From: Candidatus Eiseniibacteriota bacterium
Lineage (GTDB): Bacteria; Eisenbacteria; RBG-16-71-46; JABDJR01
Direction: 5' to 3'
Length of the DNA stretch: 64,000 nt
Assembly (NCBI GenBank): GCA_963762255.1
Contig: CAVXKA010000001.1
Coordinates: forward strand, 1,460,147-1,524,146
Positions 28,000-63,799 of the stretch are shown here, piece by piece. Position numbers and translations under genes: made by a program. The first letter of the stretch is position 1; the number at the start of each line of letters is the position of its first letter. The notes beneath the pieces are model-generated. The model had not been told where the DNA came from, did not search any database, and worked only from the letters and a program-made list of their open reading frames with translations.

Positions 28000-28061
28000 A
28001 TACATGGCGCCCGTGCTCGGGCGGACCGATGAACACAGGGCCAGGACAGGAGGATTCGACG

Positions 28062-29324
28062 ATGCGACAGAGTGGATGGCGGCTTTCTGCCGTCGCGCTG
28101 ATGGGAGCGGCAACGCTCGCCCTTCTACTTTTCGGGTGCGGCGACGATAAGTCGATCACATCCGGCTTCGATGGCTTCGAGAATGAGACCGCCGAGATGT
28201 CCATCGACCTCGGTATAGAGGACGGCGGAGTCGGGACGTCGGCCGAGCAACCGGGCTTCGGCGAAAGCTACTTCGACCGGTACCTGCAGGGCGGGGAGCC
28301 GGTCGTCGATGCGTTGAACGCGGATCCGAGAATGAATCCTCTCGAGCGGCGTCCCGGTACCTCCGTGCAGTACCTGCGCGTCACGTGGGGAAACCTGCGG
28401 CGCGGGCCCGAAGCGGTCGACGACACGACGCGGGGGCCGGTCCTCGACTGGAGCGGCAAGGCGGTCGTCTCCGATGGGCTCCTCCTGCCGCTGCAGGTGC
28501 TCCGCTTCGAGCGCGGTGACTTTCTCGTGCGCCCCACGAAGCCGGAGCCGGGCCAGCCTGCCAACCGCCAGGTTGTGGAGTGGGTCTCCAAGACCGCGGG
28601 CGCGTGGGACGGTGTCCTGCTCAAGATCGTGGTGCCTCCGGCGGGTGACTCCACGTTCGCCGCCTATCGCTTGAACGTCAATGGGGACGGGCTCACCGTC
28701 GACGACCTCTTCACATTCGACACCGAGCTTCTCGACGTGAGCTTCCCGCTGAACGGGATCGCTGATCTCGACACCGTGATCCTGCTCGACGAAGAGAACG
28801 GGGTCTCGTTCACCGGCTTCAGCCGGGAAGACGTGGAACTCTGCCCGCGGGGCGCCCTCGTCGGCGCGTGGGTGAAGGTGGACACCGACAGCGCGAACGG
28901 CGGGTTCTTCCGCGCGGTGTGGGAAGGTCCCCTCGGCGACGTGCGCGGCCATCTGCGAGGCCGCTGGGGTGTTCTCGAGGACGGCACCCAGGCCTTCGTC
29001 GGCAAGATCATCGACCGCAAAGGCGGCTATGCCGGCTTCGTGCGCGGGACGTGGGAGGCGGATGCCGCCGATCCCACCCAGGGGACATTTCACGGAATCT
29101 GGAAGCGGCGAGCCGGCGACGGACCGCCGGCGGTGGTCGGGACCGTGCGCGGTGTGTGGGGCCTGAGCGACCGCATCCGAGAAGGGTGGACTCCTTCGCG
29201 GGGTGTGGAAGAAGGACTGCGGGGAAGCGAACGGCGCCGACTGACCGACGCGAGTCACGCAGATCCTAACCGGACCAGGAAAGGCGGGGCGGTCTCGTGG
29301 AGGCCGCCCCGCCTTGCTGCGTGA
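28062..29324 (+). CDS. hypothetical lipoprotein (sigma-54-controlled)
   Basis: The ATG at 28062 is preceded by AGGAGG (28047-28052). Lipoprotein signal with lipobox LLLFGCGDD. No recognisable domain. The in-frame ATG at 28029 is a less likely alternative. Confidence 0.65.
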   Translation: MRQSGWRLSAVALMGAATLALLLFGCGDDKSITSGFDGFENETAEMSIDLGIEDGGVGTSAEQPGFGESYFDRYLQGGEPVVDALNADPRMNPLERRPGTSVQYLRVTWGNLRRGPEAVDDTTRGPVLDWSGKAVVSDGLLLPLQVLRFERGDFLVRPTKPEPGQPANRQVVEWVSKTAGAWDGVLLKIVVPPAGDSTFAAYRLNVNGDGLTVDDLFTFDTELLDVSFPLNGIADLDTVILLDEENGVSFTGFSREDVELCPRGALVGAWVKVDTDSANGGFFRAVWEGPLGDVRGHLRGRWGVLEDGTQAFVGKIIDRKGGYAGFVRGTWEADAADPTQGTFHGIWKRRAGDGPPAVVGTVRGVWGLSDRIREGWTPSRGVEEGLRGSERRRLTDASHADPNRTRKGGAVSWRPPRLAA

Positions 29325-29871: not shown

Positions 29872-31185
29872 CTACTCCCCGACGCGCGGCGGCGCGTACT
29901 CCTCGTCGAGCCGCACCGGGTACGCGTAGGGACTTCCCCAGAGCGTGCGGAAGTCGCGGTCGAGCGCGGCGGTGAGTTCTCGGCTCTGTGCCACCAACCC
30001 CACGTTGCGCGTCGTGTAGAAGTAGCTCTTCTCCCAGTTGCTCGTCCCCACCCAGCATGTCGTCCCGTCCACGGTCATGTACTTGGCGTGGGTCACGCGC
30101 GCGAAGGGGATGAAACCCGTCGAGGCCTCGGGGATCGTGACGAGGCGCACTTCAATCCCCGGCACGCAGGTGAGGCTCTTGAGGAAGTCGATCGCCGGTT
30201 TGCGCTTGCTCCAGTCGGCGACCATGAGCCGCACGCGAACGCCTCGCACCGCCGCCCGCCGCAGCGCGTCGTCGAGCTCCGGCCAATAGGTCTTGTCGCG
30301 CGAGACCGGGTTGTACGTGAGGACGGTGACCTGGATCGAGTCGCGCGCGCCGTCGATGGCCGCAACGATCTGCGGGAGATCCCACGAGGTGGGGTCGGGG
30401 AGGCGGCCGGTCGGGCTCATGGCAGGGCGGAAGCGCGCGGTGTCTCCGGACGCCTCGATCCACGCGAAGGGGAGATGGGCTCTGTAGGTCAGAATGGGGC
30501 CCGTCACCTCCGGGAGCGGCCGCGCTGCGTCCAGCGGACTCGCGTCGGCCCAGTCCGCCTCGAATACCCGATCCAGCTCGACCGCGTACTCTGGGAAGGG
30601 GACGCGCACCCCGATCTCGTGGATGTGCTCGAGCGCGCGCCAGTCGAAGTTCTGGCTCCCGAAATACGCCTCCCACGCATCGACCACAAAGTACTTGGCG
30701 TGCATGACGCCGCCGGTGAGCGCGCGGTAGTCGATGAGCCGCACCTGCACGTTCTTCGCCCGCGACAGCCGGTCGAGCGTGGCGGGGTAGGTCTTGTAGA
30801 ACCCGGCGTCGCCGAGCACCCGCACCCGCACGCCTCGCTCGCCGGCCGCCTCGATGGCGACGATCGTCGGTTCGAGGCGGCTCCCCGGCTCGTCCGAGAA
30901 GTAGAAGCTCGGCGACGTCGAGCGTGCTCCGGGCCCGGCCGATCATCTCCGGCCACACCTGCCACGCATCGGGCACCTCCGGGTGGTCGAGGATCGTCTC
31001 CACAGGCGCGGTCTCGACGACCGTGATCGATGCCGGGGGGTCAGAGGAAACCTCTCCCGCGTGTGCGGGACACCAGGATGCCACGGCCAGCGCTGCCGAG
31101 AACAGGCCGACGCGGCGGAGAAGCGGGCGCAGTGACCGAACGAGAGCGGGCGCAGTGACGCGAGCGAGAGCGGGCTGGTTTTCAC
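29872..31185 (-). pseudogene. phospholipase D (HKD)-family protein, disrupted (1-nt frameshift plus 23-bp tandem duplication in the 5' region)
   Basis: ORF 29872..30831 carries two HKD motifs (HAKYFVVD...GSQNF and HAKYMTVDG...GTSNWE) but no N-terminus. The missing N-terminal PLD region (ITVVETAPVETILDHPEVPDAWQVWPEMIGRARSTLDVAE) is readable in another frame at 30910-31100. The signal peptide is in a third frame, starting from the GTG at 31185. Removing one 23-nt repeat unit restores MKTSPLSLASLRPLLRRVGLFSAALAVASWCPAHA. Confidence 0.6.
31122..31175 (+). repeat. 23/24-bp tandem repeat, 2.3 copies (AGCGGGCGCAGTGACCGAACGAG / AGCGGGCGCAGTGACGCGAGCGAG / AGCGGGC)
   Basis: Direct reading. The repeat lies inside the 5' coding region of the PLD-family gene on the opposite strand. 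Confidence 0.7.
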
Positions 31186-31252
31186 GGGCGGCCTCCGCTA
31201 GATTGAGCTTTGCTGCGGGAAACGTCCTGGATCTTACGCCCACGCCCCGCGC

Positions 31253-32581
31253 ATGAGGAACCCGCTCGTGATGCGTCTTCGCCCCGCTCTCAGAACGGGA
31301 TCTCCGCGCCGGCCGGTCATGCTCCCGGTTGCGTCCGCGCTTGTGGCTGTCACCATGCTCCTGACGGTGGGGACGGCTCGAGCGCAGAGTACGATGTGGG
31401 ACGCCTTCCGCAAACGTCCGTCCGAGCCGGTCGTCTATCCGGAGATCCTGCGCGACGCGGCGTGGGTCAAGGTTCATGCGGCGGATCGCAACGTGATCGT
31501 CGTGGACGCGCGCCCCGCCGCCGCGTTCGCTGCGGGGCACGTGCCGGGAGCAAGACGCGTCGATCCCACCGCCTGGGACGGTCGCATCGACGCTCTGGCC
31601 GCCTGGTTCGCAGGCGCGGGCGTGTCCAGCGACGGCGAGGTCGTGTGCGTCTCCGATCGCGCGAACCCAGCCGCATCGGGCGCGCTCTTCTGGCTTCTCG
31701 AATTGGCCGGCCATCCGCACGTCACCCTGCTCAACGGCGGCATGGAGGCATGGCGGGGTGCCGGCGGCGCAATCGAGGACGGTGAGGCCTCGGCGCGCGC
31801 GGCGCACTTTGCCGCCGCTCCCGACACATCCAGGATCTGCGACTACGCCTTCGTGCGCGCCCGCTTCGGAACGCGGGGGACCAGCATCCTGGACTGGCGC
31901 TCGGCGGAGGCGTGGGCGACAGGCCACATCCCGCACAGCCTGCCCTTTCCGCTCGAGACGCTCGTCACCGAGGACGGGCTCACTCGCACGGGCCCCGACA
32001 TGCGCCCTCTCTTCGAGCAGTGGGGGCCGCGCGAGCGGGAGTACGTGGACCTGAGCGACGAGATCGTCGTGTGCGGCGACCTGCGTCCGAGCGACGCGCC
32101 GATCCACCCGTACTTCGCCGCGCGCCTTGCCGGGATTGCCCGCGTGCGCGTCTACCCCGAAGGGTTCTCGGGATGGCGCGCGCATGCCGACGCCCCCGTC
32201 GTCCGCCTGATCGGAACGGAGGAGCTGCGCGGCATGCTCCACGCGGCGTGGGGCCGGACCTTGCCGGACATCCCTCCGCCGCGCTTCATCCTGCTCGACC
32301 TGCGTGGGGAGAACGATTTCAGACGGGGGCATCTGCCCGGCGCCCTGAGCCTGCAGCCCCACCTGTTCGAGAAGTACCTCGACTACCTGGCGGGTGAGTA
32401 CTGGCCGGGGGCCGACCGGGCCCGTATCCCCCTGGTCGTCTATTGCTACGGACCCACCTGCACCCGCAGCCGGAACGGCTCGACCCAGGCCGCCCGGCGC
32501 GGCTTCCTGAACCTCTTCTGGTACAAGGAAGGCACGCAGGGATGGCGAGCGGCGGGCGAGACCTGGATCGAGGGCGAGTGA
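31253..32581 (+). CDS. secreted multi-domain rhodanese (sulfurtransferase) protein, three rhodanese modules
   Basis: Signal peptide. Three rhodanese-like units; the last has the active-site loop VVYCYGPTCTRSRNG. Confidence 0.85.
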   Translation: MRNPLVMRLRPALRTGSPRRPVMLPVASALVAVTMLLTVGTARAQSTMWDAFRKRPSEPVVYPEILRDAAWVKVHAADRNVIVVDARPAAAFAAGHVPGARRVDPTAWDGRIDALAAWFAGAGVSSDGEVVCVSDRANPAASGALFWLLELAGHPHVTLLNGGMEAWRGAGGAIEDGEASARAAHFAAAPDTSRICDYAFVRARFGTRGTSILDWRSAEAWATGHIPHSLPFPLETLVTEDGLTRTGPDMRPLFEQWGPREREYVDLSDEIVVCGDLRPSDAPIHPYFAARLAGIARVRVYPEGFSGWRAHADAPVVRLIGTEELRGMLHAAWGRTLPDIPPPRFILLDLRGENDFRRGHLPGALSLQPHLFEKYLDYLAGEYWPGADRARIPLVVYCYGPTCTRSRNGSTQAARRGFLNLFWYKEGTQGWRAAGETWIEGE

Positions 32582-32631
32582 GGCTCTGCGCTAGCTGAGC
32601 CCCGCTCCCGGATCGATCCCCAAGAGTCCGA

Positions 32632-33124
32632 TCACGACTCTCCTGATGAGGTGATGACGATCCAGCCCAACAAGACAGTGATCACCGCGCGGCGGGTGCT
32701 GAAATCCAGGGCTTGGCGAATGGCCACGACGCCGGCGACGAGAGCCCAAACCCCGCCGATGAGCCCCAGCCACCCTCCCACCTTCGGGATGAAGACGAAG
32801 AAGGAGAGCAGAGTCGGAGTGTGGGCGTAACCCAGGACGCGCAGCATCTCGCCCATGTTCGATTCCGTGTCCGGTCCCTTGGTGACGCGGGTTCCGATCA
32901 GGAGCGTGATCCCCGACCAGATCATCCAGCTGATGAAAGAGGCGATCACGCCCACGATGAGGGTCTTCACGTCCCCTCCGTGGCCGATCATGAGTCCCAA
33001 GACCCCAAGCCAGCGAGGCCAGGAGCACCACGATCGCCGACTCCCTCGTGTAGGACGAGTCGGTCTCCACCATCTCGTAGAACTGCGTGTCGAGCCGCGC
33101 TGCACGCATCATCCGAGTGAGCAT
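32632..33124 (-). pseudogene. Yip1-domain membrane protein, frameshifted at a C4/G4 homopolymer (about 33003-33006)
   Basis: The N-terminal 45 residues (MLTRMMRAARLDTQFYEMVETDSSYTRESAIVVLLASLAWGLG) are in the frame of ORF 32591..33124. The remaining TM-rich body (LMIGHGGDVKTLIVGVIASF...) is in the frame of ORF 32632..33105. The junction is at GGGG. Confidence 0.5.
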
Positions 33125-43612: not shown

Positions 43613-45462
<1,850 letters not shown>

Positions 45463-45599
45463 GAGAGTGTGTACTCGGCAAGTATACACGGGAGAGGGCG
45501 TGGCCCGAGAACCTACGGGATCAGGTATAGTGACTCGGTGCATCGGCGCACGCTAACATCGATGCCGACCATCTGCCGACGAAAGGCGCAATAGCAGGT

Positions 45600-47823: not shown

Positions 47824-49318
47824 CTACGGCGTGAGCAGCTCCGCTTCCGGCGCGCGCTTCAAGAGCGTGCGCACGCCGCGGGTGACGTGGCAGGCACGGA
47901 ACCCCGACTTGTGCATCAGTTCTGCAAGGTAGGCGCTCTTGAACCCCACTTCGCAGTAGAGGGCGTAGCTCTGGTCGCGGCTGAACGCGGGGTACGCGGC
48001 GAGGGCCTTCATGTATTCGAGGTGCAGGGCGCCGGGATAGTGCCAGGCCTCGAAGGCCGCTCGCGAGCGAAGATCGAGCACCGTCGTTCCGTCCGGAATC
48101 GTCTCGATCTCGAGGTCGGACGGCGCCGTTGCCTCGAGTTCGATCGTACGCAGCTCGTGCACGATGCGCGCGGAGAAGACGCGATCCAGGAGCGAAGGGT
48201 CGAGCCGCGATTCCTCGGTCTCGACCACCGAATGCGACGCGTTGGTGGAGGGATTCTTGGGAACGAGCGCGCAGTATTCGTCCACCTCCGCCGATCGGTC
48301 GTAGGTGCCGATCCGCCGCGCGATGGAGATGATCTCCTCCTTGTTCATGCCCACCAGGGGGCGCAGCACGGCAAGGTCCGTCGCTCGGGACACCACCGCC
48401 ATGTTCTGGAGCGTCTGCGAGGAGACCTGGCCGACGGAATCCCCGGTGATGAGGGCCTCGATCTCCAGCTCGCGCGCCAGACGCTCGCCGGCGCGCAGCA
48501 TGAACCGCTTCAGGATCACCTGCCAGTACTTGGGCAGAACCTTGGCCTGGATCTCCTCCACCGCGGGTTGGAAGTCGATCTCGTAGAGGTGCGGTCGGTC
48601 GCCGTAGCTCCAATGATCGGCGATGATCTTCATCACCCGCAGCACGCCGCGTCGGTGCGCCGGCCCGCCGAGATTGCAGAAGAGATAGTCGAGCGACACG
48701 CCGCGCCGCAGGAGCATCCACGAGGCCACCGCGGAATCGAATCCGCCCGAGACCAGGGACAGCGCGCGTCCCTGCACGCCGACCGGGAGGCCGCCTTCCG
48801 CCGGGATCATCTCGGTGAAGAGGTACGCCTCCTCCGGGTACACCTCGAGGTACGCGGTCACCTCCGGGGTGCGCAGATCGACGCGGGCCGCATGCTCGAG
48901 GAGCGCGGTGCCGAGAGCGCGCTGCACGTCCGCGGAGCGAAACGGAATGAGCTGGGTCTTGCCCGCCCGCCGCGCGCGCACCGCGAACCGCTTCCCGCGC
49001 ACCGCCTCGGCGAAGAACTTCTCTCCCTGATTGACGAGATCGGGCAGATCCCGCCACGTGTGTCGCGCGATCGGCGAAACCGATTGCAGCCCGAACACGT
49101 GCGGGAGGATATCGATGCGCGAGCGGAGACTGGGTCTCCACGATCATGCGGTGCCACTCGCGCTCCGTTTCGTATGGAGCGCCGGTGGTCCCCAACGCGT
49201 TCTTCACGTTCTGGGCGAGCCGCTTGGTGAACCGCTGCTTGGTCTTGGGAAACTTGATGGATACCTCCCCCGAATAACGGAGGAGGATCCATCGCGGCGC
49301 CGCCGGATCGGAATGCAA
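47824..49318 (-). CDS. thiI: tRNA 4-thiouridine synthase with C-terminal rhodanese domain, interrupted by a single frameshift near 49120-49135
   Basis: The N-terminal ferredoxin-like/THUMP start (WILLRYSGEVSIKFPKTKQRFTKRL...REWHRMIVETQSP) is in the frame of ORF 47438..49318. The PP-loop SGGFDS, the body and the rhodanese tail (CEVGFKSAYL) are in the frame of ORF 47824..49098. The junction lies at GGAGACTGGGTCTCC. Confidence 0.7.
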
Positions 49319-49320
49319 AG

Positions 49321-52300
49321 CTACGGCACCCGGGTGATCTTGACCGCGCCCGCGGTGCGGCCATCCACCACCACTCGGGTGAAGAAGATCCCCGCGCCGG
49401 CGTCGAGGCCGGTGTCGGTGCGGCCGTCCCAGCTCAGCCGGTGCTCGCCCGCATTCAGGCGGCCGGAGTAGATCACGCGCACGCGACGTCCGGTCAGATC
49501 GAACACCTCGGCGCGCACCTCGTACTCGTCCTTGCCGCCGTCGGCGCGGCCCGCCAAAACCACCGGCACCTGCGCGGCACCGATCATCGGGTTCGGGAAC
49601 GCGGCGAGAAGCCGCGTCACGCCCGCCGGCGTGTCACCGGGGACGCTCGTCGTGCTCTTGGCATCGGGAAGGCCGTCGTCATCCGCGTCGACGGTCACCA
49701 TGCACCGATTGTCCACCGCGGGCAGCGTGGCGCTCTCATTGTTCGGGCAGACGTCGCCGCCGAGTGTGCCGGTCGGCTCGGGATCCCAGCACACGGAGGC
49801 CACCGCCGCGATCTTCGTTCCCGCCGGCACCTGGCCCGCTCCCAGCCCGTAGAGCACGTCCCACGGAATCGCCAGCTCGCTCCCGCCGTTGTTGCCGTTC
49901 AGGTGGTTGGGATCGAAGGCCATGATCGCCTGCGAGCTCAAGTCCACCGCGGTCGTCGGACTGGTGATCCGCCAGAGGCTCTGGCCGTCGTAGACGCTCT
50001 GGTGCTGATAGGCGCCCATCTGAATGTCGGGCTTGAAGCCGGGACCGCTGAAGCTCGCGCCTCGTTCCCAGCTCGAGATCGCGGTCAGGTCGGTCTGCCC
50101 GTTCGGCCCGCCGAAATCGGTGTCGAGATAGAGGAGCCAGGAATTCCCCTTCACGCGACCCTGGATGCCGATGTAGAGGTAGTCGGCATCCCAGTCCATG
50201 TAGAGGACGTTGATCTCGTTGGTGTCACCGGGAGAAGAACTGTTCCAGGCCGAGTCCCACCAGTCCTCGCACTGCCAGCGCGCATTCCCCCAGTCGGCCG
50301 TCGAGAAGAGTCCGTCGATCTGGATCGCGGTCGGCGGCGTGTAGTTCACGGCCACGTTGTCGTTTTGCGTGACCTGGACGTTCCCGTTGCTCGCCGCGTC
50401 GCGCACGGTGTTGGCCGCCAGGAGCAGTTCCAGCGAGCCCGTGCTGAGCGCCTCCAGCGCGGCCGCGGTCGTCGGCGTCAAGTCGAAGTCGAGCTTCGTG
50501 CTGGTACCGGTCGTGGTGAGCGTCTCCGAGTTGGTGAGCGTCACCTCGGCGATCGCCGTCGTTGTCGTCGTCGATGGCGATTCCGGTCTTCACCACCAGG
50601 GACGCCTGCACCGGCTCGTCGAAGTAAAGCGTGAGGTGGTTCGTGCCCGGGAAGTAGGTGCCGCTCAGGGCCAGCGGTCCAAGCTGGTCGGTGAGTGCGT
50701 CGCGCAGCGCCTTCAGCTCGGGGATGTGCCCCTGGCCGTCCAGCGCGCTCGAGAAGCCGCCGTAGACGAGCACCCGGAACTGACTGTCGCCGTAGAACTC
50801 GTCGCCCTCCAGGAGCGTGGCCGAGAACTGGGTGTTGTGATGTCCGCCCGCCGATCCCACCACGACGCCTGCGGTCGCGTTCGTGTTGGGGTTCTTCTGA
50901 CCGAAGTAGCCGCCGCCGTCGGGATCCCACACCCGGTTCAGCGTACCGTTCCAGGTCATGTCGCGCAGGTCGGGGCTGAACCCGTTCTTGACGTAGACAC
51001 GCTGCCCGGGTGCCTTGTACGTGACGTCCAGGTAGGGCTGGCCCAGCGTCAAGGACACCGTCTTCGTCACCGCGGGATGGGTGAGCCTGGCGGTGACGGT
51101 GTTGCCGGAGCCGGCCACCACGGAGAGCCCGTAGAGTTCGTGCTCCTTGTCGCTGCCGCCCACGCTCACGTCGGAGAGCGTGGCCACGTGGTTCGTCTCG
51201 TTGTAGTCGCCGTCGGTGTCCACCCAGTAAGCGTTGTCGTTGGAGACCACTGAGTAGTTGTAGTCGCTCCCCTTGGCGAAGAGCCACTGCAGCTTGCCGC
51301 CGATGGTATCGAAGACCGCCAGCAGGCGGTCGTTGTACATCACCAACTCTTCCACCCCGTCGTCGTCGATGTCGCTCGTGTAGGCGCCGGTGGGGTTCAC
51401 ATAGAGCCCGCCCGCCCAGCGCGCGGCCTCGGTGTGCGGATTCGCGGAACGAATGTGGTTCGAATAGTGGTTCTGCCACCCGGAGATCTCGCCGGCGTCG
51501 TGCCAACCGGTCTCGTGGAGGTTGGTGACCAGGATGTACCACGCCATCTCGCTCAGGTTGTTGGCCGGCGCGGTGAGGAGCTTGTTCAGCACGTTGTTCC
51601 ACTGCTGGCCGTAGTTCCACTTGGGCGTGTGGCCGTCCAGGTTCGCGGCCCCGGTGTAGGCCGCCCAATCGCCGTACCAATAGTTGTTGCCGCCGCCATA
51701 GCCGTCCAGCCCGCCGAGGAGCCCGTAGGTGCCGCTCTGAAGCGTGATCGCCTGCGTGGTGAAGCCGGGATCCTGGAGCACGTCGGTCAGCTTCCACACA
51801 CTCACGGTGCCGCTGTTGGCCGAGCACTGCTGGAGGATGTGGATGTAGTTGTTGAGCGCGTCCGGATTGCCGGCTCCCTGCGAGACTTCGGCCGCGATCT
51901 CCGCGTCGTTGCCGTAGAGGATGATCTCGTCCGAAGTGCTGGAGAGGATGCGGTTCCAGGCGTTGCCCCAGTTCCAGTTCACGTCGCCCACGAACGTGTT
52001 GTCGATGGGGAGGACCTTGATCCCGCCGTAGGTGTAGATGTGGTGGTCGTTGAACGCGTTGTTGTTGTATCCGCAGTGAATGTAGTCGTCGAGGATGACC
52101 GCCCAGATGCCGTTGTCCGCGAAATCGTCGCCGATCCAGTCGATCACGTTCCCCGACGCGGTGACGCCGTTTCCGTCGTTGTCGGGGTTCTCGCACCACA
52201 CGCGCTCCGGCACCCAGGCGACGCGCGGCGTGAAGCCGTAGCGGTAGGAGATCATCGAGTTCTCGAGATCCACCGCCTTGCCGTTGATCTCGTCGCGCAG

Positions 52301-53338
52301 GAACGGCATCATGTGCTGCCCGTACGCGGAGGTGATCATCTCGATCCATCCGCCGGTGACGCCCGCCGAGAGCCAGTCGTTGAAGCTCTTGTCGTGCCAC
52401 TCCGCCGCCGAGATCAGCGTCCCCGCCTGGTGCCAGTTGACCGGCAGGTTGTAGTAGTCGTGGGCGGCAAGAAGCTCGTCGGCGCCGTCGTCGGGGTTGT
52501 TGACATCGCCGTCGTTCACCGCATTCTCGCCGCGCTCACCGCGGAACACCGTGGTATAGGTGAGCCCCTGGTTCAGGTGCTGCACGAACGCGACGTTGTG
52601 GACGTTGCTCGTGGGGCTGTTGTCGGCGGTGATGCCGTCCAGCACGATGCCGCCCTCGGTGGTGAACACGTAGAAGTTGATGGGCGTGGACTCGTCTGCC
52701 GCCGCCCGGGGCGCGACCGCGTCGAACGCCGCCGCGGACTTTCCAGCGCCTTGCGCCACCGCTTCCTGGAACCCGCTCGGGAGCCAGCAACTCGCCTCGA
52801 GCATGTCCCACTCGCGGGTGGCGCGCACCGAGCGCACGCGTTCCGTCTCGCGGGCATCGCCAGCAGTGTCGAGCAAACGCGCGGTCGCCCCGGCCGAGGA
52901 CTCGGTGAGTTCCACCGCGCGATCCCACGCGATGGGGGCTTCACCCGCGATGCCGTCGGGGAGCGACTTCGTCCCGCCGGACGCGTAGTCCATGAGCACG
53001 AACACCCGCACGCCGGCGTCGAGGACGCGCTCGGCGGTCTCCGCGCTCGGGGTCGGGTAGACGTTCACGCGCATCGAAAGCCGGTCCACTTCCTGATCGA
53101 AGTAGAAGCCCATGAGATCGCCACGCGCGGTCTGGCCGGTCGTGCCGTCGAAGACGGGGTCCAATGCCTTGGCGTTGGCGCGCTGCCAGAGATGCGGGTT
53201 GCCCTCGATCTCGAGACCGGGGGCCGCGACGAGCGGCGCGATCCAGTCATGCGCGTCGAGTTCGCCGACGGAATGGCTCGCGAGCGGGAGCGCGGCGAGG
53301 ACAAGGAGAAGAGGAAGCGTGCGACGGATCCAGTTCAT
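49321..53338 (-). CDS. large secreted glycoside-hydrolase-like protein (GH57-like core) with T9SS/FlgD-type C-terminal sorting domain; the CTD is in a shifted frame (junction about 50545-50575)
   Basis: Signal peptide. GH57-like regions GWIEMI (region II-like) and AWVPERVW (WxxERV, region III-like). ORF 50225..53338 degenerates into Arg-rich frame noise after ...GIAIDDDNDG. ORF 49321..50544 continues in another frame and ends with a typical CTD: FPNPM...VFDLTGRRVRVIYSGRLNAGEHRLSWDGRTDTGLDAGAGIFFTRV. Confidence 0.55.
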
Positions 53339-54331: not shown

Positions 54332-54601
54332 GGGCTGGGCCTCCGGATACTCGGGTGCCATACCCGGTTTCCTGCACACATCAGAGCGTCTCCACAGAGT
54401 ACGGCCACCCCAGCTCATCGCTCAGGCGTGCTGGGGAGTTGCTGCGTTCGCCGGAAAGGAAGATCGAGGGTAGATCTCGCGCCTTCTGGATTGCGGTGGT
54501 TCATTACCACCACCGCGAGACTAGCTCAGTGGACAGCCGGGAGACACGAAACTCATGATAATATTCCATCAGTGTCCGCAGGCCCAGTTGGGAGGCAATC
54601 C

Positions 54602-55186
54602 ATGCCCGAGGAACTGCGAAACCACGAACTCGTCACCCTGGCTGTCTATTTGGTGGGAGGGGACGCCCATGAAGTTGACACGGAAGATGTCGCTATAAAG
54701 GCTGATGAACTAGCGCCAGGTCGATTCACGTGGAGGAAATATAGAGATCAGATTAATATTGAGATAATCAGAGCGTTTCTATCCGACGCTAAGAAACCAA
54801 AGAATGGTGGCTACCTCATTGGCACGGGGAACACGGGTTGGCTGTTGACTGGGGCCGGTTTGTCATTCGTTACTGCGAACCTGATCCGACTCAAAACAAT
54901 ACATGATCGCGGGGCACGTCTGGGCGCAGAGGAGCGTCGGCGTCGGACAAGAGAACATGATCGCTTACTCAGTACTGCGGCCTTCCAGAAGTACTCGGCG
55001 GGCGAACAGTCTGCTATATCTATGCGGGACGCAGAGGCTGCCTTCAGGCTGAATGAGTACATTGTTGGAGAGGCGCGACGCAGGAAGGTACAAAAGCTGG
55101 TCAATACATTCGCAGATGATGAGGAACTGGGAGGCGCGATCCGGTTCCTGGCTGCCCTTGCGTGCGGGGAGACCGGTGATGACTGA
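54602..55186 (+). CDS. hypothetical protein (island gene 1)
   Basis: The ATG at 54602 is preceded by GGGAGG. 194 aa, no recognisable domain. Overlaps the next gene by 8 nt (ATGACTGA). Confidence 0.55.
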   Translation: MPEELRNHELVTLAVYLVGGDAHEVDTEDVAIKADELAPGRFTWRKYRDQINIEIIRAFLSDAKKPKNGGYLIGTGNTGWLLTGAGLSFVTANLIRLKTIHDRGARLGAEERRRRTREHDRLLSTAAFQKYSAGEQSAISMRDAEAAFRLNEYIVGEARRRKVQKLVNTFADDEELGGAIRFLAALACGETGDD

Positions 55187-56840
55187 AGCAGAAGAGCTGT
55201 ATGTGAAAAGTCACGTTTCACGTGATCTATTGCAGAGCGCGGCACTCTTCAAGAATGACCACCTCGTCGTTTGGGAATACGTCTCCAATGGGCTTCAGTA
55301 CGTCGACCCGGGTACGGTTCCCAGAGTCCGGGTGACGCTGGATGATAGGCGAAAGCGAATCGCGATCAAAGACAATGGGCGAGGAATGACGTTCGCTGAC
55401 CTTCAGGACTTCTTCGTCATGCACGGAGAGAACGTCGATCGAAAGATCGGGCGACCGGGTCGCGGGATGTTCGGAACGGGCAAGTCAGCGGCGTTCGGGA
55501 TCGCAGAAAGACTGATCATCTCCACCACCCGGAACGGGATGCGAACACGGGTATCCTTGTCCCGTGACGACATAAATGGGATGCGAGACAACTCCCCCAT
55601 TCCCGTTCAGGTCTTGGAGAGAACAGAGAATTCGGAGGAAGCGAATGGGACACTGGTAGAGATTGAGGGCGTCCATCTTCGGAAGCTTGATCAGAAGAAC
55701 GTCATTCGGTTTGTGGAACGACATCTCGCGCATTGGCCTCGCAACGTCGTTGTGTGGATCAACAATCACGAATGCCAGTATGTGCCCCCCGCGGCCCTGC
55801 GACTGGATGTGATTCACCCAAGCGGGGAAATCGCGGAGATTCTGGGGCCGTGCAAACTGAATCTGCGTGTGTCCGCGGTGCCGTTGGGCGCTGACGAGGC
55901 AGGCGTGGCGGTGTTCTCAAAAGGGGTGTGGTATGAGACGACCCTCGCCGGAAGCGAAGGGCGCGAGATGGCTAGCTTCATCTTTGGCGATATCGACATT
56001 CCTAGAATCGACGAGGATGACTCACCGATTGCTCCGTTTGATATGAGCAGGGCGATGCATCTTAACGCTGCCAATCCCTTGGTTCAGACTGCATACGCGT
56101 TCATTGGGACCAGCGTTGAGAAGCTAAGAAGGGAGCTGGTGGCTGAGGAGCGTAGGAGGCGTGCTTCTGAGGAGGCGCAGAAACTGGCGATGCAGGGGAG
56201 CGAAATCGCCCGCGTGATCAATGAGGATTTCCGTGAGTTTCAGCAAAGAGTGGCCAAAGCGCGCGCACGTGCGCGGGGAGGAGACGACCTTGGGGTGACC
56301 GAGCTGGACGGGGGGGGAGAAGCAGCCGACCTGGTGTTTGGGCGCGACGAGGGAGCGGTTATTCTGGATGATCATGGCAGCCCTGGAGCAGAAGGGAGTG
56401 GGGGGGGCGGAGCGGGGGGAGAGCCGCGCACGCTGAACCCGGAGGTCGAAGCCGGTACGGACGCGGACCCAAAGCTCGGACAGAGATCCGGTAGCGATGG
56501 TGGGGGTAGGGCCAAGCCCCGTGGCGGGTTCAGTATTGAATTTAGACACATGGGCCAAGACCAGGACCGGGCCAAGTACCAGCGAGAAGCAAGGCAGATT
56601 GTCATCAACTTGGACCATCCCCAGCTACATGCCGCGCTTGGTTCAGGTAGCGTAGAAGACCCCGTGTTTCGACGGCTTGCATATGAGGTCGCGTTCTCAG
56701 AGTACGCGCTTGCACTGGCACTTGAGTTGGCGTTGCGCGATGAGTATGTGGACATCACAGATCCGATCGTCGAGATTGGGGAGACCTTGAATCGAGTTGC
56801 GCGGCGCGGAGCGTCCCTCTATGAGGAACCCAGTACCTAG
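55179..56840 (+). CDS. GHKL/HATPase_c-type ATPase (histidine-kinase-like ATP-binding fold), island gene 2
   Basis: N-box-like WEYVSNGLQYVD, G1 box IKDNGRGM and G2 box GRGMFGTGKSAAFGIA. A long C-terminal region has a Gly-rich linker. Confidence 0.68.
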   Translation: MTEAEELYVKSHVSRDLLQSAALFKNDHLVVWEYVSNGLQYVDPGTVPRVRVTLDDRRKRIAIKDNGRGMTFADLQDFFVMHGENVDRKIGRPGRGMFGTGKSAAFGIAERLIISTTRNGMRTRVSLSRDDINGMRDNSPIPVQVLERTENSEEANGTLVEIEGVHLRKLDQKNVIRFVERHLAHWPRNVVVWINNHECQYVPPAALRLDVIHPSGEIAEILGPCKLNLRVSAVPLGADEAGVAVFSKGVWYETTLAGSEGREMASFIFGDIDIPRIDEDDSPIAPFDMSRAMHLNAANPLVQTAYAFIGTSVEKLRRELVAEERRRRASEEAQKLAMQGSEIARVINEDFREFQQRVAKARARARGGDDLGVTELDGGGEAADLVFGRDEGAVILDDHGSPGAEGSGGGGAGGEPRTLNPEVEAGTDADPKLGQRSGSDGGGRAKPRGGFSIEFRHMGQDQDRAKYQREARQIVINLDHPQLHAALGSGSVEDPVFRRLAYEVAFSEYALALALELALRDEYVDITDPIVEIGETLNRVARRGASLYEEPST

Positions 56841-56913
56841 TCCTTCCGCTTCTGACAGTGCCGGCTCCGCCATGGCCGCAGCAGCTGAGCACTGAGCCGA
56901 GGCGGAATTTGCG

Positions 56914-59316
56914 ATGAAGACGCAGGGGCGGCGCACTATTCCACAGTTGTTCCTTTCGGATAGTGCTCGGAGATGTCTCAAGAGACTGGCAATCGAGCGC
57001 GTCGTTGACCTAGCGCGCGTGACGCCCACGGAGATTTTGGGAGCCTGTGAAGAGAATCATGACACGCTCCAGGAAATCACGCAGCTCGCTTGGGAGATGG
57101 GCTCCCCGGTCGCAAGTCAACTAACGATTGACTTTGCCGGCACGCGCATTCATGAAGCTGATACTTCCGCCAACGTCCACCACCAGCATTCTGCGGATGT
57201 GGTCCCTCGTGTCCTTCTCTTGGGTGTTACGGACTTTCATCTTTCGGTACGTGCTCGAAATGGGCTAAAGAGGCTGAACATCGAGTTTGTAGGAGACCTT
57301 GTGACGACGCCAAGGTCGATCCTGCTGCGAACGCGTAACCTGGGCCGAAAGACACTCGGCGAGCTCGAGCATCTCGCGGCTGGACTAGGCATGGTGCTGG
57401 GTATGCAGATTCCCTCCTGGGAGACGATCGACGCTTGTCGTGAGGCGACGCGACACCGTGCTGCCTTGGATGGATTGCGGGAGCGTCTGAAGCGCGGGGT
57501 CCGCGCCGAGGTCGTTCCTGTTGCTGAGTCGGCGAGTGCAGCCGCAGCGCCGATGCAGAGCCATTGGAGATCCGAAGAACTCGCACTAATCATGCTCATG
57601 CGAGTGGCTGATTTCGGGCTCTCAGCACGCGCGAAGAGCGGCCTGGAGAAGTTGCACATCGAGTTTCTGGGTGACTTGGTCACGACGAAGGAGAGGAAGT
57701 TTCGAACGACGCGCAACTTTGGTCAGAAGACCCTGGAGGAGCTGCGCAATCTCGTGGGGTCGTTCGGGCTTGTTCTCGGATCCGATATGTCGGGATGGCT
57801 AGGCGTAGCAGCGCATGAGGCTGAAAAGCGGCACAAGGAGGAGATAGATAGGCTGTGGAGACGAGTTGCGCAGGAGCGCTTCTCTATTGATTCAACTTGC
57901 GGGGTAGAGCAAGAGATCGAATCGGCGCTGCACTTGGCACTACGTGCTGACCGTGTCAGGAGAGTCAGCGCATGGATGGGTCTCGGACGAGACGTGTGTC
58001 CAACGTTGGAGGAGGTTGGTTCGGAGTGCGGGGTTACGCGTGAGCGAATCCGGCAGATCGTGATGGCTGGAAGCACGAGGGTGCGTACAGTGCGGCTGGA
58101 AATGCCCAGGCTGCGCGGGGCACTTAGGGGACTTGAGGGAGCTGGATTGTTGTCAATCAGGAGCGCTGAGGCGTTTCTCAAGGAAGAGGGGTACACGACG
58201 GGGAACATCTCAATGGCGTGCCTGCTTCGGACTGCGAGGTTCTTCGGCATTCAGACGCAACTGAGGATGATCAAGGGAGGTGGGCAAGAGTTCGTTGGCA
58301 CGCCGAGAGCAAGAATGGTCCTCTTGCCAATCCGTCGTGAAACGCGACGGGCGGTCAGAAGGTGGGGATGCGCAACACTGGAGGATGTGGCGGCACAAGC
58401 GAGTCGGGAAGCTGCTCGTGCGATCTCAGCGGATCTGGTCGGGGACGTCGCGAAGACCTTCGGTGATTTCCGATGGCTGGATGAGGAGTCGGGCTGGTTC
58501 TGGCTTTCTAAGACGCGTCAGAATCGCCTGCTTTCTAGGATCGACAAGATTCTGGCTGTCGCGCCCCGCGTTGATCTGGCGCAACTCCGGGCCGGTGTTG
58601 GGCGGCACTATCGGATGGAGGGCTTTGCTCCACCCCTCCGAGTACTCCGCTCCCTTTGTGAACAGATGGAGGGCTGTGACGTCATTGATGGACAGATCAT
58701 CGTTGCCCTGCGCCCACGAAGACTGGACATGGTACTCAGCGGCACCGAAAGAGTCCTCGTTACTGTAATGCGTGACCACGGGCCAGTCGTGTCATATGCG
58801 GAGATCGTGCGCCGATGTGTCGCCGCCGGCCTCAATCCGACAACGACGAGTGTTCATCTGGGTAACTCACCGGTCGTCCGTCGCCTCGCTCCTGGAGCGT
58901 ATTCGCTGATTGGACAATCAGTGCTTCCCGGAGAGGTGGCTAGAGTGATCGCAGGCGCAACACATGGGAAACGGGTCATTCAGGATTCAGGCTGGGCTCG
59001 TGACGGGAGTGCATTCTGGGTGACATACAAGATCTCCGAGAGCGTTCTCCGGAGCGGTGTTGTGAGTGTTCCGGCCGGACTTGCGAAGCTCATGACGCCT
59101 CAGGGGTACGACTTGATCGGAGTTGATGGTGGGCATGTCGGACGCATCAGGGTTGCGGGGTCAAGCATATGGGGGTTCCTACCCGTCTTCCGAAGGCGTG
59201 GGGGAGATGCGGGGGACTATGTGCGTGTGACCTTTCGAAATAGCAGTGCTACGGCCAAGTTCGAATTCAGCGACATTCCATTCGAGGATGCGTACGTGAC
59301 CCGGACCCTGTCCTGA
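56914..59316 (+). CDS. protein with three tandem RNA-polymerase alpha-subunit C-terminal-domain (alpha-CTD)-like HhH modules plus a sigma-70 region-4-like HTH and an uncharacterised C-terminal half, island gene 3
   Basis: Repeats LSVRARNGLKRLNIEFVGDLVTTPRSILLRTRNLGRKTLGELEHLAAGLGMVLGM and LSARAKSGLEKLHIEFLGDLVTTKERKFRTTRNFGQKTLEELRNLVGSFGLVLG align by eye to E. coli alpha-CTD ([55 protein letters not shown]). PTLEEVGSECGVTRERIRQI matches sigma-70 region 4.2 (TLEEVGKQFDVTRERIRQIE). Confidence 0.7.
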   Translation: MKTQGRRTIPQLFLSDSARRCLKRLAIERVVDLARVTPTEILGACEENHDTLQEITQLAWEMGSPVASQLTIDFAGTRIHEADTSANVHHQHSADVVPRVLLLGVTDFHLSVRARNGLKRLNIEFVGDLVTTPRSILLRTRNLGRKTLGELEHLAAGLGMVLGMQIPSWETIDACREATRHRAALDGLRERLKRGVRAEVVPVAESASAAAAPMQSHWRSEELALIMLMRVADFGLSARAKSGLEKLHIEFLGDLVTTKERKFRTTRNFGQKTLEELRNLVGSFGLVLGSDMSGWLGVAAHEAEKRHKEEIDRLWRRVAQERFSIDSTCGVEQEIESALHLALRADRVRRVSAWMGLGRDVCPTLEEVGSECGVTRERIRQIVMAGSTRVRTVRLEMPRLRGALRGLEGAGLLSIRSAEAFLKEEGYTTGNISMACLLRTARFFGIQTQLRMIKGGGQEFVGTPRARMVLLPIRRETRRAVRRWGCATLEDVAAQASREAARAISADLVGDVAKTFGDFRWLDEESGWFWLSKTRQNRLLSRIDKILAVAPRVDLAQLRAGVGRHYRMEGFAPPLRVLRSLCEQMEGCDVIDGQIIVALRPRRLDMVLSGTERVLVTVMRDHGPVVSYAEIVRRCVAAGLNPTTTSVHLGNSPVVRRLAPGAYSLIGQSVLPGEVARVIAGATHGKRVIQDSGWARDGSAFWVTYKISESVLRSGVVSVPAGLAKLMTPQGYDLIGVDGGHVGRIRVAGSSIWGFLPVFRRRGGDAGDYVRVTFRNSSATAKFEFSDIPFEDAYVTRTLS

Positions 59317-59635
59317 CCGGATGTGGCGGCGGCCATCCCCCGCACCATCACCTGCTGCACCGCGAACACGATCCCCAGGAGCGTTCCGCCGGCATCATCC
59401 CGGTGTAAGTCGCTCCGAAGTCGCCAACCACATGCTCGCAGGACCAAGTCTCCTCGCGATGGCGCTTATTCGGTGTCTAGAAGATGGACGACTTCAGGAG
59501 CGCTGCCCGCGAGTCGGAGAACCCCAGCACCAACGCAAGCTCCGTCCACATGCCGAGGAGCAAGACCCGGCTCTTGCTCGATTGATTGAAGATCTGAAGG
59601 AGGTCGTTCAGCGCTCCGCCGATGGCAACGATGGT

Positions 59636-60231: not shown

Positions 60232-60491
60232 GGTGTGCTCCACCTCCGATTGGGTAGTCCGAAGGGTTCGGCCATCAGTATAGCACTCTAACTCGTTGTC
60301 GTTCAATGGGTTAATTTGCCCATCCATTCAAGTGTCGGTCGATCAACAGGTTGCGTGCGATTTGCATGACGCGCCGGCTCATCGGTGGGGGATATCGCCC
60401 GGGACAGTTGTGCGGGATCGTCGCCATGGGTACTCTCGGCGCCGGACTCCCGGCCGCACATCTCACCATCGCCCCTCAGCGAGAGACAACC

Positions 60492-63400: not shown

Positions 63401-63799
63401 ATGCAGTGCGCGTTCCGCGGGCACGTGGCGGCGTTGTGCGACGAGAAGACCGCATCGGACGGCGAGGTGTTCGCCGAGGGCATCCGCCGTCTCGGAATCG
63501 GCACGCTGATCGGCACGCGCACCTGGGGCGGAGAGATCTGGCTCAGCTCGGACAACTTCCTCGTCGACGGCGGCATCGCCACCGCCGCCGAGTACGGCGT
63601 GTACGGACCGGAAGGGGAGTGGCTCATCGAGGGCCACGGCGTCGAGCCCGACATCGTGGTGGACAACTTGCCGCACGCGACGTTCCGAGGCGAAGACGCG
63701 CAGCTCAAGGCGGCGGTGGATCACCTGCTCAAGAAGTTGGCGGACGAGCCGGTGCCGCCTCCGCCGCAACCCGAGTATCCCGACAAGTCGTTCAAGTAG
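60492..63799 (+). CDS. tricorn-protease homologue (beta-propellers + PDZ + S41-like catalytic domain), interrupted by two frameshifts at (CG)n runs (about 62847-62858 and about 63079-63092)
   Basis: The ATG at 60492 gives a signal peptide. The propeller region reads GDIWKVPDTGGTATRLTSHAGNEATPAISPDGKTLAFV. The PDZ domain (GYRVEHIYRSDPDEPGRASPLARPGVNVADGDVITMVNGVP) is in the +1 frame. The S41-like catalytic domain (LIVDVRRNTGGNIDSW...TASDGEVFAEG...TRTWGGEIW) is in ORF 63098..63799. Confidence 0.7.

What the first reader, a model, noticed from the sequence alone, without database searches (positions are those of the whole stretch)
31122..31185. 23-bp tandem duplication that knocks the signal peptide of a PLD-family gene out of frame
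Two and a third copies of AGCGGGCGCAGTGAC(C/G)(G)CGA(A/G)CGAG lie inside the 5' end of the minus-strand PLD gene. Deleting one 23-nt unit in silico joins the GTG start at 31185 to a perfect Sec signal peptide, MKTSPLSLASLRPLLRRVGLFSAALAVASWCPAHAGEV, and on into the PLD N-domain. A 23-bp duplication is not a typical sequencing error, so this looks like a genuine insertional inactivation or a reversible on/off switch. A second 1-nt shift at about 30907 also separates the N-domain from the two HKD motifs.
Basis: seen in the sequence. Interest (0 to 1): 0.6.

Follow-up and report, generated by a model that had tools for sequence, protein, structure and literature searches.

The report
Probable assembly frameshifts in PLD gene
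The repeat and both frame breaks in this secreted phospholipase-D-family gene are really in the sequence, but the same 64-kb window has seven more single-base frame breaks in five other conserved genes, so the "knock-out" is most likely a sequencing or assembly error laid over a harmless eight-codon duplication, not a genetic switch.

Summary
A tandem repeat lies at 31122-31175. Removing 23 nt rejoins the GTG start (31185) to a good signal peptide, and a second 1-nt shift lies at 30907-30909. Six independent orthologue lineages all have one unit and lack the extra base, so both lesions are specific to the window.

The interpretation does not hold well.
1. The units are 24 nt and 23 nt. The 24-nt spacing matches a CCCGCT microhomology already present in single-unit relatives. 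The simplest history is an in-frame 8-codon duplication, with one base missing from the second copy.
2. The window has 9 frame breaks in 6 genes (PLD x2, Yip1 x2, tricorn x2, ThiI, a GH57/FlgD-Ig protein, a hypothetical protein). The four placed against short-read relatives are isolated 1-nt indels; the rest were placed only against a relative that is itself broken, or by frame and domain analysis.
3. All four short-read-assembled lineages are in frame. A related long-read-style assembly is broken at different sites, including its own PLD signal peptide.
4. The catalytic part of the repaired PLD has dN/dS 0.12, like intact neighbours.
5. The second frameshift and only two imperfect copies argue against a reversible switch.

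Most likely the gene is intact in the organism. Interest is low.

The parts
29872..31185 (-). PLD-superfamily gene (GTG start to TAG stop), 1314 nt as deposited. The repaired one-unit product is 429 aa and the in-frame two-unit product is 437 aa.
   Evidence: Pfam PLDc_2 x2 (E 2e-40) and PLDc_3. Orthologues P0002 and P0247 are 429 aa. Nearest solved structure is 7e0m (Serratia plymuthica PLD), E 2.7e-94, then PLD3/PLD4.
31183..31185 (-). GTG start codon. GGAGG lies at 31192-31196 (6-nt spacer) and an in-frame TAG at 31198-31200.
   Evidence: Sequence. The start context GGAGGCCGCC(G/T)TGAAAAC is conserved in L001, L006, L089, L153 and L154.
31231..31236 (-). TAAGAT hexamer, invariant in all six lineages, about 46 nt upstream of the start. 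Possibly a -10 element (inference only).
   Evidence: Invariant columns in alignment A4. The simple sigma-70 scan found no full promoter.
31151..31174 (-). Repeat copy A, 24 nt (CCCGCTCTCGCTCGCGTCACTGCG), encoding PLSLASLR.
31128..31150 (-). Repeat copy B, 23 nt (CCCGCTCTCGTTCGGTCACTGCG): one C>T and one base missing relative to copy A. This is the extra segment absent from all orthologues. The missing base is what shifts the frame.
   Evidence: L153's single unit reads ...TCGTTCGTGTCACTGCG, so copy B equals that allele minus one T.
31117..31127 (-). Partial third copy (CCCGCTTCTCC), the downstream arm of the CCCGCT microhomology that lies 24 nt from the upstream arm in single-unit relatives.
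30943..30945 (-). Stop codon that ends the 80-codon frame-0 product of the sequence as deposited.
   Evidence: ORF 30943..31185.
30907..30909 (-). Second frame break: one extra base (window GCCGAGCTTC, relatives GCCGG(G/C)TTC). It returns the reading to the start frame.
30694..30702 (-). First HxK of HKD motif 1 (HAKYFVVD...GSQN), intact.
   Evidence: Sequence; translation.
30082..30090 (-). HxK of HKD motif 2 (HAKYMTVD...GTSN), intact.
   Evidence: Sequence; translation.

Best explanation
The gene encodes a secreted two-HKD PLD-family enzyme and is most probably intact in the living organism.

The repeat is best read as an in-frame 24-nt (8-codon) tandem duplication in the n-region of the signal peptide. 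It probably arose by slippage between CCCGCT microhomologies that already lie 24 nt apart in relatives. The product would be MKTS-PLSLASLR-PLSF(A/V)SLR-PLLRRVGLF...AHA|GEV, still a workable signal peptide.

The two frame breaks are a missing base in copy B and an extra base at 30907-30909. They belong to the same class as the isolated single-base indels measured elsewhere in this window. They are most likely consensus errors of a long-read metagenome assembly, not mutations.

Shown: the lesions are specific to the window; single-base frame breaks recur across the window; the short-read versus long-read-style contrast holds; purifying selection is still visible. Inferred: the 24-nt origin of the repeat; that the indels are errors; that the window's source is a long-read assembly.
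For: 1. Unit lengths are 24 and 23 nt, and copy B equals copy A with one C>T and one gap. Single-unit relatives already carry CCCG(C/G)TCTCG ... 24 nt ... CCCGCT(T/A)CT. Every other tandem array in the window has a period that is a multiple of 3.
2. There are nine frame breaks in six genes within 64 kb.
   - PLD: 31128-50 and 30907-9.
   - Yip1: +1 near 32995 and -1 at 32651, seen against three relatives. The Yip1 domain is found only in the shifted segment.
   - hyp392: C-terminus WKKDCGE lies in another frame.
   - ThiI: +1 at 49116.
   - GH57/FlgD-Ig protein: split 929 + 407 aa where orthologues are about 1335 aa.
   - Tricorn protease: C1, PDZ and S41 domains lie in three frames.
3. Every short-read-type lineage is in frame: JGI L001-5/L007, JGI L153, Logan L006, SPAdes L089. 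The 16 genes of L007 align to the window without long-range shifts except in PLD, Yip1 and hyp392.
4. The related ENA assembly ERZ25039527 (contig_N names) is fragmented at different sites: tricorn in 3 pieces, OPT in 3, GH57 in 2. Its PLD has its own 1-nt break inside the signal peptide.
5. The window's 1037-aa ORF is in NCBI+ENA on a 1.72-Mb metagenomic contig. Named relatives come from the Nanopore-only MFD catalogue, made with Flye plus one Medaka round (PMC12313526). Small-indel frameshifts are a documented problem of such data (PMC9262707; bioRxiv 10.1101/2021.08.23.457338).
6. dN/dS of the repaired PLD against L007 is 0.19 overall and 0.12 for the catalytic part. Intact neighbours range 0.05-0.25.
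7. Both HKD motifs are intact.
Against: No reads are available, so none of the indels is proven to be an error.

The window's source record could not be retrieved, so its sequencing platform is inferred.

The indel contexts are not homopolymers, which is the classic Nanopore error site.

It is somewhat coincidental that an error falls inside the 47-nt repeat. My estimate is roughly 1-6%, given the observed local density of breaks.

The breaks cluster in pairs within genes (PLD, Yip1, tricorn), which uniform random error does not predict. Local low coverage or strain mixing could explain this, but neither is shown.

A 23/24-nt duplication is itself not a usual consensus error, so at least that part may be a true difference.
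Confidence: 0.55

Rival explanations
1. The whole extra 23 nt, not only the missing base, is an assembly or polishing artefact. For example, two co-occurring strain alleles of the unit could have been laid down in tandem. The organism would then have the ordinary one-unit, 429-aa gene.
For: The two copies carry different alleles. Copy A reads CTCGCG. Copy B reads TTCG-G, which matches the TTCGTG allele seen in lineage L153. The region 29.2-33.0 kb holds five of the nine frame breaks, so it looks locally unreliable. All six orthologue lineages have one unit.
Against: Polishing normally removes a 23-nt insertion that the reads do not support. A duplication bounded by pre-existing microhomology looks like a real replication-slippage product. 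No other multi-base tandem artefact was seen in the window; other length differences lie in low-complexity, in-frame tracts.
Confidence: 0.2
2. It is a genuine pseudogene. A real net 23-nt insertion and a real 1-nt insertion have inactivated the PLD gene in this lineage, very recently.
For: Both lesions are specific to the window and absent from all relatives. As deposited, translation from the conserved GTG stops after 80 codons. The indel contexts are not homopolymers. A 23-nt change is not a typical base-calling error.
Against: It would require about 12% of the genes in this window to be fresh pseudogenes, including ThiI and tricorn protease, in a free-living-type, high-GC genome with normal coding signal. 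dN/dS shows no relaxation. The breakage tracks assembly type, not phylogeny.
Confidence: 0.18
3. It is a reversible on/off (phase-variation) switch. Gain and loss of one repeat unit would toggle expression of the secreted enzyme. Known parallels are opa-type repeats in a leader-peptide region and the cap3A tandem-duplication switch of Streptococcus pneumoniae.
For: The repeat lies in the signal-peptide coding region. In the deposited sequence, removing 23 nt restores that junction. A duplication-and-reversion switch is known for cap3A (Waite et al. 2001, as summarised in PMC11163986).
Against: There are only two full copies, of unequal length and 93% identical. The second frameshift at 30907-9 keeps the gene off whatever the repeat does. 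No copy-number variation appears among 17 contigs of related lineages, all with one unit. The same window has similar frame breaks in genes without repeats.
Confidence: 0.03
4. Programmed recoding: a -1 ribosomal frameshift at the repeat and a +1 shift at CTT-CTA near 30907 would yield the full-length protein from the deposited sequence.
For: The two shifts sum to zero, as do those in Yip1. CTT followed by the rare codon CTA loosely recalls Ty1-type +1 sites (my own knowledge, not tested).
Against: There is no in-frame X_XXY_YYZ slippery heptamer between 31185 and 30880. Neither site is conserved, since every orthologue is simply in frame. A stop at 30943 precedes the second site in the start frame.
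Confidence: 0.01

Closest known systems
Small-indel consensus errors in long-read (Nanopore) metagenome-assembled genomes, which split genes into frame-shifted pieces (PMC9262707; proovframe preprint 10.1101/2021.08.23.457338; MFD long-read MAG catalogue PMC12313526)
   Same: Isolated 1-nt insertions and deletions split conserved genes at many loci. Short-read assemblies of close relatives are intact. A sister long-read-style assembly is broken at different positions. The source is a megabase-scale metagenomic contig.
   Different: The indels here are not in long homopolymers. One of them sits inside a 24-nt duplication that is probably real. The platform of the window's source was not verified.
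In-frame tandem duplications generated by replication slippage between short direct repeats (microhomology), a common source of length variation in signal-peptide n-regions and low-complexity tracts
   Same: The 24-nt unit is bounded by CCCGCT repeats already present 24 nt apart in relatives. The duplicated 8 residues lie in the tolerant n-region. Other arrays in the window are in frame (periods 6-27).
   Different: As deposited, the second copy is 23 nt, so the array is not in frame.
Phase variation by repeats in a leader-peptide coding region (Neisseria opa CTCTT repeats; own knowledge) and by reversible tandem duplication (S. pneumoniae cap3A, Waite et al. 2001 via PMC11163986)
   Same: A repeat in the 5' coding region sets the reading frame of a secreted or surface protein.
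   Different: There are two imperfect copies rather than many perfect ones (opa) or an exact duplication (cap3A). A second independent frameshift lies downstream. No copy-number heterogeneity was seen.
Serratia plymuthica AS9 phospholipase D (PDB 7e0m, PMC8004604) and the mammalian PLD3/PLD4 5'-3' exonucleases
   Same: Same two-HKD fold family. The alignment to 7e0m covers residues 47-428 at E 2.7e-94, and PLD3/4 score about 1e-46. The PLDc_3 domain is present.
   Different: The substrate (lipid or nucleic acid) of the window's enzyme is unknown. This comparison concerns the gene, not the repeat.

Membership tests
PLD superfamily, two-HKD enzyme (7e0m / PLD3-4-like branch) | Two HxK(x)4D(x)6G(S/T)xN motifs | tested here: met
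   HAKYFVVDAWEAYFGSQN and HAKYMTVDGTTCWVGTSN in the translation.
PLD superfamily, two-HKD enzyme (7e0m / PLD3-4-like branch) | Profile match above the curated threshold | tested here: met
   PLDc_2 138 bits (cut-off 27), PLDc_3 56.9 bits (cut-off 27). 7e0m E 2.7e-94.
PLD superfamily, two-HKD enzyme (7e0m / PLD3-4-like branch) | Uninterrupted reading frame | tested here: not met
   There are two frame breaks in the deposited sequence. All orthologues are intact.
Sec-type signal peptide | Positively charged n-region, hydrophobic h-region, small-x-small cleavage site | tested here: inconclusive
   Heuristics only. The repaired 1-unit form has n-region charge +4 and the 2-unit form +5. The h-region VGLFSAALAVA has mean KD 2.25. 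A-H-A|G is conserved in L153, with A-Q-A|G in L001. SignalP was not available. The as-is frame-0 product lacks these features.
Repeat-mediated phase-variable (contingency) locus | Tract of several identical units able to slip | tested here: not met
   2.3 copies, 93% identity, units of 24 and 23 nt.
Repeat-mediated phase-variable (contingency) locus | A change of unit number alone restores the ORF | tested here: not met
   A second frameshift at 30907-9 remains.
Repeat-mediated phase-variable (contingency) locus | Unit-number heterogeneity among reads or strains | not testable with these tools
   No reads are available. All related contigs have one unit. Exact-pattern scans for 1-3 units in the window's own lineage found nothing.
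Reversible tandem-duplication switch (cap3A type) | Exact duplication whose precise loss restores function | tested here: not met
   The copies differ at two positions, and the downstream frameshift persists.
Genuine pseudogene | Disabling lesion absent from orthologues | tested here: met
Genuine pseudogene | Relaxed selection or further decay | tested here: not met
   dN/dS is 0.12 for the catalytic part and 0.19 overall, against 0.05-0.25 in intact neighbours. The HKD motifs are intact.
Genuine pseudogene | Lesion confirmed in independent reads or assemblies | not testable with these tools
   The window's lineage is absent from the searchable contig collections.
Long-read consensus indel error | Many isolated 1-nt indels breaking unrelated conserved genes | tested here: met
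   Nine breaks in six genes within 64 kb.
Long-read consensus indel error | Absent from short-read assemblies of relatives; other long-read assemblies broken elsewhere | tested here: met
   Short-read lineages are in frame, 4 of 4. ERZ25039527 contigs are broken at other sites, including the PLD signal peptide.
Long-read consensus indel error | Source is an unpolished or lightly polished long-read assembly | tested here: inconclusive
   The source is a 1,723,983-bp metagenomic contig in NCBI+ENA. Named relatives are Nanopore MFD MAGs (PMC12313526). The record itself was not retrieved.

The most novel reading that the evidence does not exclude
The organism truly carries the 24+23-nt imperfect duplication, and the population is heterogeneous for unit number, so that expression of a secreted PLD3/4-like enzyme in an uncultured Eisenbacteria lineage is toggled by gain or loss of a long repeat unit. 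The 30907 base would then be the only error.
Probability: 0.03. Interest if true: 0.45.

Novelty: not a real feature. Interest (0 to 1): 0.1.

Why it matters
If the frame breaks were real, this would be one fresh pseudogene in an uncultured lineage, which is of minor interest. The more useful result is cautionary. About one gene in eight in this window is split by isolated small indels, so any 'pseudogene', 'frameshift' or 'switch' call from this assembly needs read-level support. Gene catalogues built from it will contain truncated and chimeric proteins. One example is the 1037-aa ORF already in public protein databases, whose orthologues are about 1335 aa.

Tried and rejected
- Exact-pattern scans for the window's own lineage with 1-3 repeat units found nothing in GTDB representative genomes or JGI metagenomes. 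Not even the window itself was found.
- Exact-protein look-ups of window proteins (dCMP deaminase, PLD fragment, P0121, P0246) found nothing on record. The source record and its platform therefore could not be read.
- The JGI scan with ThiI returned only relatives at 57% identity or less. It was useful for confirming the ThiI split but not for nucleotide-level comparison.
- An alternative upstream start (GTG at 31243, in the mature frame) was rejected. It lies upstream of the invariant TAAGAT, has no conserved SD, and overlaps the divergent rhodanese gene. All orthologues use the (G/T)TG after GGAGG, with an in-frame TAG just upstream.
- A direct 23-nt duplication was rejected as less parsimonious. 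No register gives two near-identical 23-mers, and the ancestor has no microhomology at 23-nt spacing (by hand).
- A lipoprotein signal was rejected: ASWC does not fit a lipobox. A Tat signal is unlikely: the RR in LLRRVG is not conserved in L006 or L089.
- Programmed frameshifting was rejected: no slippery heptamer and no conservation.
- The simple sigma-70 and terminator scan of 31100-31420 found nothing.

Full report
**What is in the sequence.**
- On the minus strand a gene runs from a GTG at 31185 to a stop at 29872-29874.
- Tandem Repeats Finder places an array at 31122-31175 (period 23, 2.3 copies, 93% matches, score 94). The same array can be read as period 24 over 31109-31175.
- It is the best-scoring tandem array in the window and the only one whose period is not a multiple of three.
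- The motif CCCGCT starts at 31174, 31150 and 31127.
- Copy A is therefore 24 nt (CCCGCTCTCGCTCGCGTCACTGCG). Copy B is 23 nt (CCCGCTCTCGTTCG-GTCACTGCG), with one C>T and one missing base. A partial third copy follows (CCCGCTTCTCC).
- Reading from the GTG, the frame changes after the repeat and changes back at 30907-30909.
- The extra sequence totals 23 + 1 = 24 nt, so the gene begins and ends in the same frame. The start frame meets a stop at 30943, which gives only 80 codons as deposited.

**What the gene is.**
- The repaired protein matches PLDc_2 twice and PLDc_3 above Pfam thresholds. It carries two intact HKD motifs.
- Its nearest solved relative is PDB 7e0m (E 2.7e-94), the phospholipase D of Serratia plymuthica AS9 (PMC8004604). 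The PLD3/PLD4 5'-3' exonucleases follow at about 1e-46.
- The nearest named genomic relatives are Candidatus Eisenbacteria MAGs.
- The start is secure. Five other lineages begin (M)KTSP at a G/TTG that follows the same GGAGG, with an in-frame TAG just upstream. An invariant TAAGAT lies about 46 nt further up.
- Simple heuristics give the repaired N-terminus a charged n-region, a hydrophobic core and a conserved A-x-A|G site.

**Comparison with orthologues.**
- Six independent orthologue lineages were aligned at nucleotide level:
  - JGI contigs L001-L005/L007 (93% protein identity, 13 contigs)
  - JGI L153 (P0247, 429 aa)
  - ENA L154
  - Logan L006 (P0002, 429 aa)
  - SPAdes L089
  - more distant MAGs
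- All have one unit and none has the extra base at 30907-30909.
Both lesions are specific to the window.

**How the repeat arose.**
- Single-unit relatives already have CCCG(C/G)TCTCG and CCCGCT(T/A)CT exactly 24 nt apart. Slippage between these would duplicate 24 nt, which is eight codons and stays in frame.
- No register of the sequence gives two good 23-mers.
- The simplest history is therefore an in-frame duplication (PLSLASLR | PLSF(A/V)SLR) in the tolerant n-region of the signal peptide, followed by loss of one base in copy B.
- Copy B reads TTCG-G and L153's unit reads TTCGTG. The C>T difference between the copies may thus be a natural allele rather than noise.
- What breaks the frame is therefore a single missing base, not the duplication as such.

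**The decisive context: the window is full of such breaks.** The window aligns collinearly over 21 kb with the JGI contig L007 (86% nucleotide identity). Most intragenic indels there are tight compensating pairs in divergent stretches, but some are long-range. A codon-usage frame model of the whole window flags several same-strand frame switches that lack a nearby stop. The broken genes are:
- PLD, at the two sites already described.
- Yip1. It has +1 near 32995 and -1 at 32651, seen against L007, L153 and L154. The Yip1 domain is detectable only in the shifted middle segment.
- The hypothetical gene at 28029-29324. Its conserved C-terminus WKKDCGE lies in another frame.
- ThiI. Residues 11-65 and 68-488 lie in different frames, with +1 at 49116.
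- A GH57/FlgD-Ig protein. It is split 929 + 407 aa where orthologues are about 1335 aa.
- Tricorn protease. Its C1, PDZ and S41 domains lie in three frames.

That makes nine frame breaks in six of roughly fifty genes. The Yip1 pair and the two PLD events are isolated 1-nt indels when measured against short-read relatives. The ThiI and GH57 breaks were placed only against L152, which is itself broken. The tricorn breaks (one lies beside a 4-nt gap against L152) and the hyp392 break (which lies among larger indels) were not resolved to a single base.

**Breakage tracks the type of assembly, not phylogeny.**
- Every short-read-type lineage keeps these genes whole.
- The related ENA assembly ERZ25039527 has contig_N names. 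It is fragmented at other positions: tricorn in three pieces, an OPT transporter in three, the GH57 protein in two.
- The PLD of that assembly has its own 1-nt break inside the signal peptide, at a different place.
- The window's 1037-aa truncated ORF is present in NCBI+ENA on a 1,723,983-bp metagenomic contig. A contig of that size is expected only from long reads.
- The named Eisenbacteria relative L090 belongs to the Nanopore-only MFD catalogue, assembled with Flye and polished with one round of Medaka (PMC12313526).
- Residual small indels that fragment genes are a documented weakness of such data (PMC9262707; bioRxiv 10.1101/2021.08.23.457338).
- I could not retrieve the window's own record, so its platform remains an inference.

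**Selection.**
- Nei-Gojobori dN/dS of the repaired PLD against L007 is 0.19 overall. It is 0.12 for the catalytic 344 codons and about 0.5 for the signal-peptide and linker part, as is usual for such regions.
- Eight intact neighbours range from 0.05 to 0.25.
- The gene has been under purifying selection for essentially all of its divergence. Any inactivation is therefore either extremely recent or not real.

**Weighing the explanations.**
- Best, about 0.55: a real in-frame 24-nt duplication, with both frame breaks being consensus errors, so the enzyme is made and exported.
- About 0.2: the whole extra unit is also an artefact. This could be linked to strain mixing, since the two copies look like two alleles and the 29.2-33.0 kb stretch holds five of the nine breaks.
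- About 0.18: a real, very recent pseudogene. It cannot be excluded without reads, and the non-homopolymer contexts of the indels count in its favour. It would, however, require about 12% fresh pseudogenes here, including housekeeping genes.
- About 0.03: a reversible switch. Against it are only two imperfect copies, the second frameshift, and the absence of unit-number variation in relatives. The known analogues are opa-type leader repeats and the cap3A duplication switch (PMC11163986); they have many perfect units or an exact duplication, and a gene that is otherwise intact.
- About 0.01: programmed frameshifting. There is no slippery heptamer and no conservation.

**Verdict.** The finding is ordinary. 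It is best filed as likely assembly error on top of a trivial length polymorphism, and the main lesson is about the quality of this assembly.

Noticed in passing
window 32594-33112 (minus): The Yip1-family gene has +1 near 32995 and -1 at 32651 relative to three relatives. The single-frame 173-codon ORF stays open, but its middle roughly 119 codons are out of frame. The Pfam Yip1 domain is found only in the shifted segment.
   Followed up: yes
window 29178-29187 (plus), gene 28029-29324: The conserved C-terminus (...GLLRGVWKKDCGE...*) of this hypothetical secreted protein lies in a different frame. The ORF therefore reads through to 431 aa instead of about 392.
   Followed up: yes
window 47824-49318 (minus), break at ~49116: The ThiI (tRNA sulfurtransferase) gene is split: its N-terminal ~65 residues lie in one frame and the remaining ~420 in another. 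The window has a 1-nt insertion relative to L152, whose ThiI is intact at 497 aa.
   Followed up: yes
window 49321-53338 (minus), break at ~50554: A large GH57 / FlgD-Ig (T9SS-type) secreted protein is split into 929 + 407 aa, while orthologues are about 1335 aa. The truncated 1037-aa ORF is already in public protein databases as P0121.
   Followed up: yes
window 60351-63799 (plus), breaks at ~62853-62865 and ~63066-63088: The tricorn-protease homologue is split across three frames: beta-propeller plus C1, then PDZ, then the S41 peptidase domain.
   Followed up: yes
L152 and L154 (ENA ERZ25039527 contigs 75733 and 66191): This related assembly is itself riddled with isolated 1-nt indels relative to the window. 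Its genes are fragmented at other sites (tricorn x3, OPT x3, GH57 x2, PLD signal peptide).
   Followed up: partly
window 54500-59500: A low-GC island (0.53-0.61 against 0.67) lacks the host codon signal and has no counterpart in L152. Its ORFs include a 595-aa GHKL ATPase (HATPase_c_3) and an 800-aa protein with two RNA-polymerase alpha-CTD domains plus a weak sigma-70 region 4 match. It may be a horizontally acquired cassette.
   Followed up: partly
window 45363-45471 (minus): A TPP riboswitch (Rfam RF00059, 62.9 bits) lies upstream of a ThiC-associated gene. At 45362, next to the riboswitch, the window has a 27-nt insertion relative to L152.
   Followed up: no
L001-L005, L154: PLD gene calls: Public gene callers started the orthologous PLD at an internal GTG (VETILDH..., 376 aa), even where the full 429-aa ORF from the conserved TTG/GTG start is intact. 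Database entries for this family therefore often lack the signal peptide.
   Followed up: yes
window 31231-31236 and orthologous positions: A TAAGAT hexamer is invariant across six lineages in the otherwise variable PLD-rhodanese intergenic region. It is a candidate -10 element.
   Followed up: no
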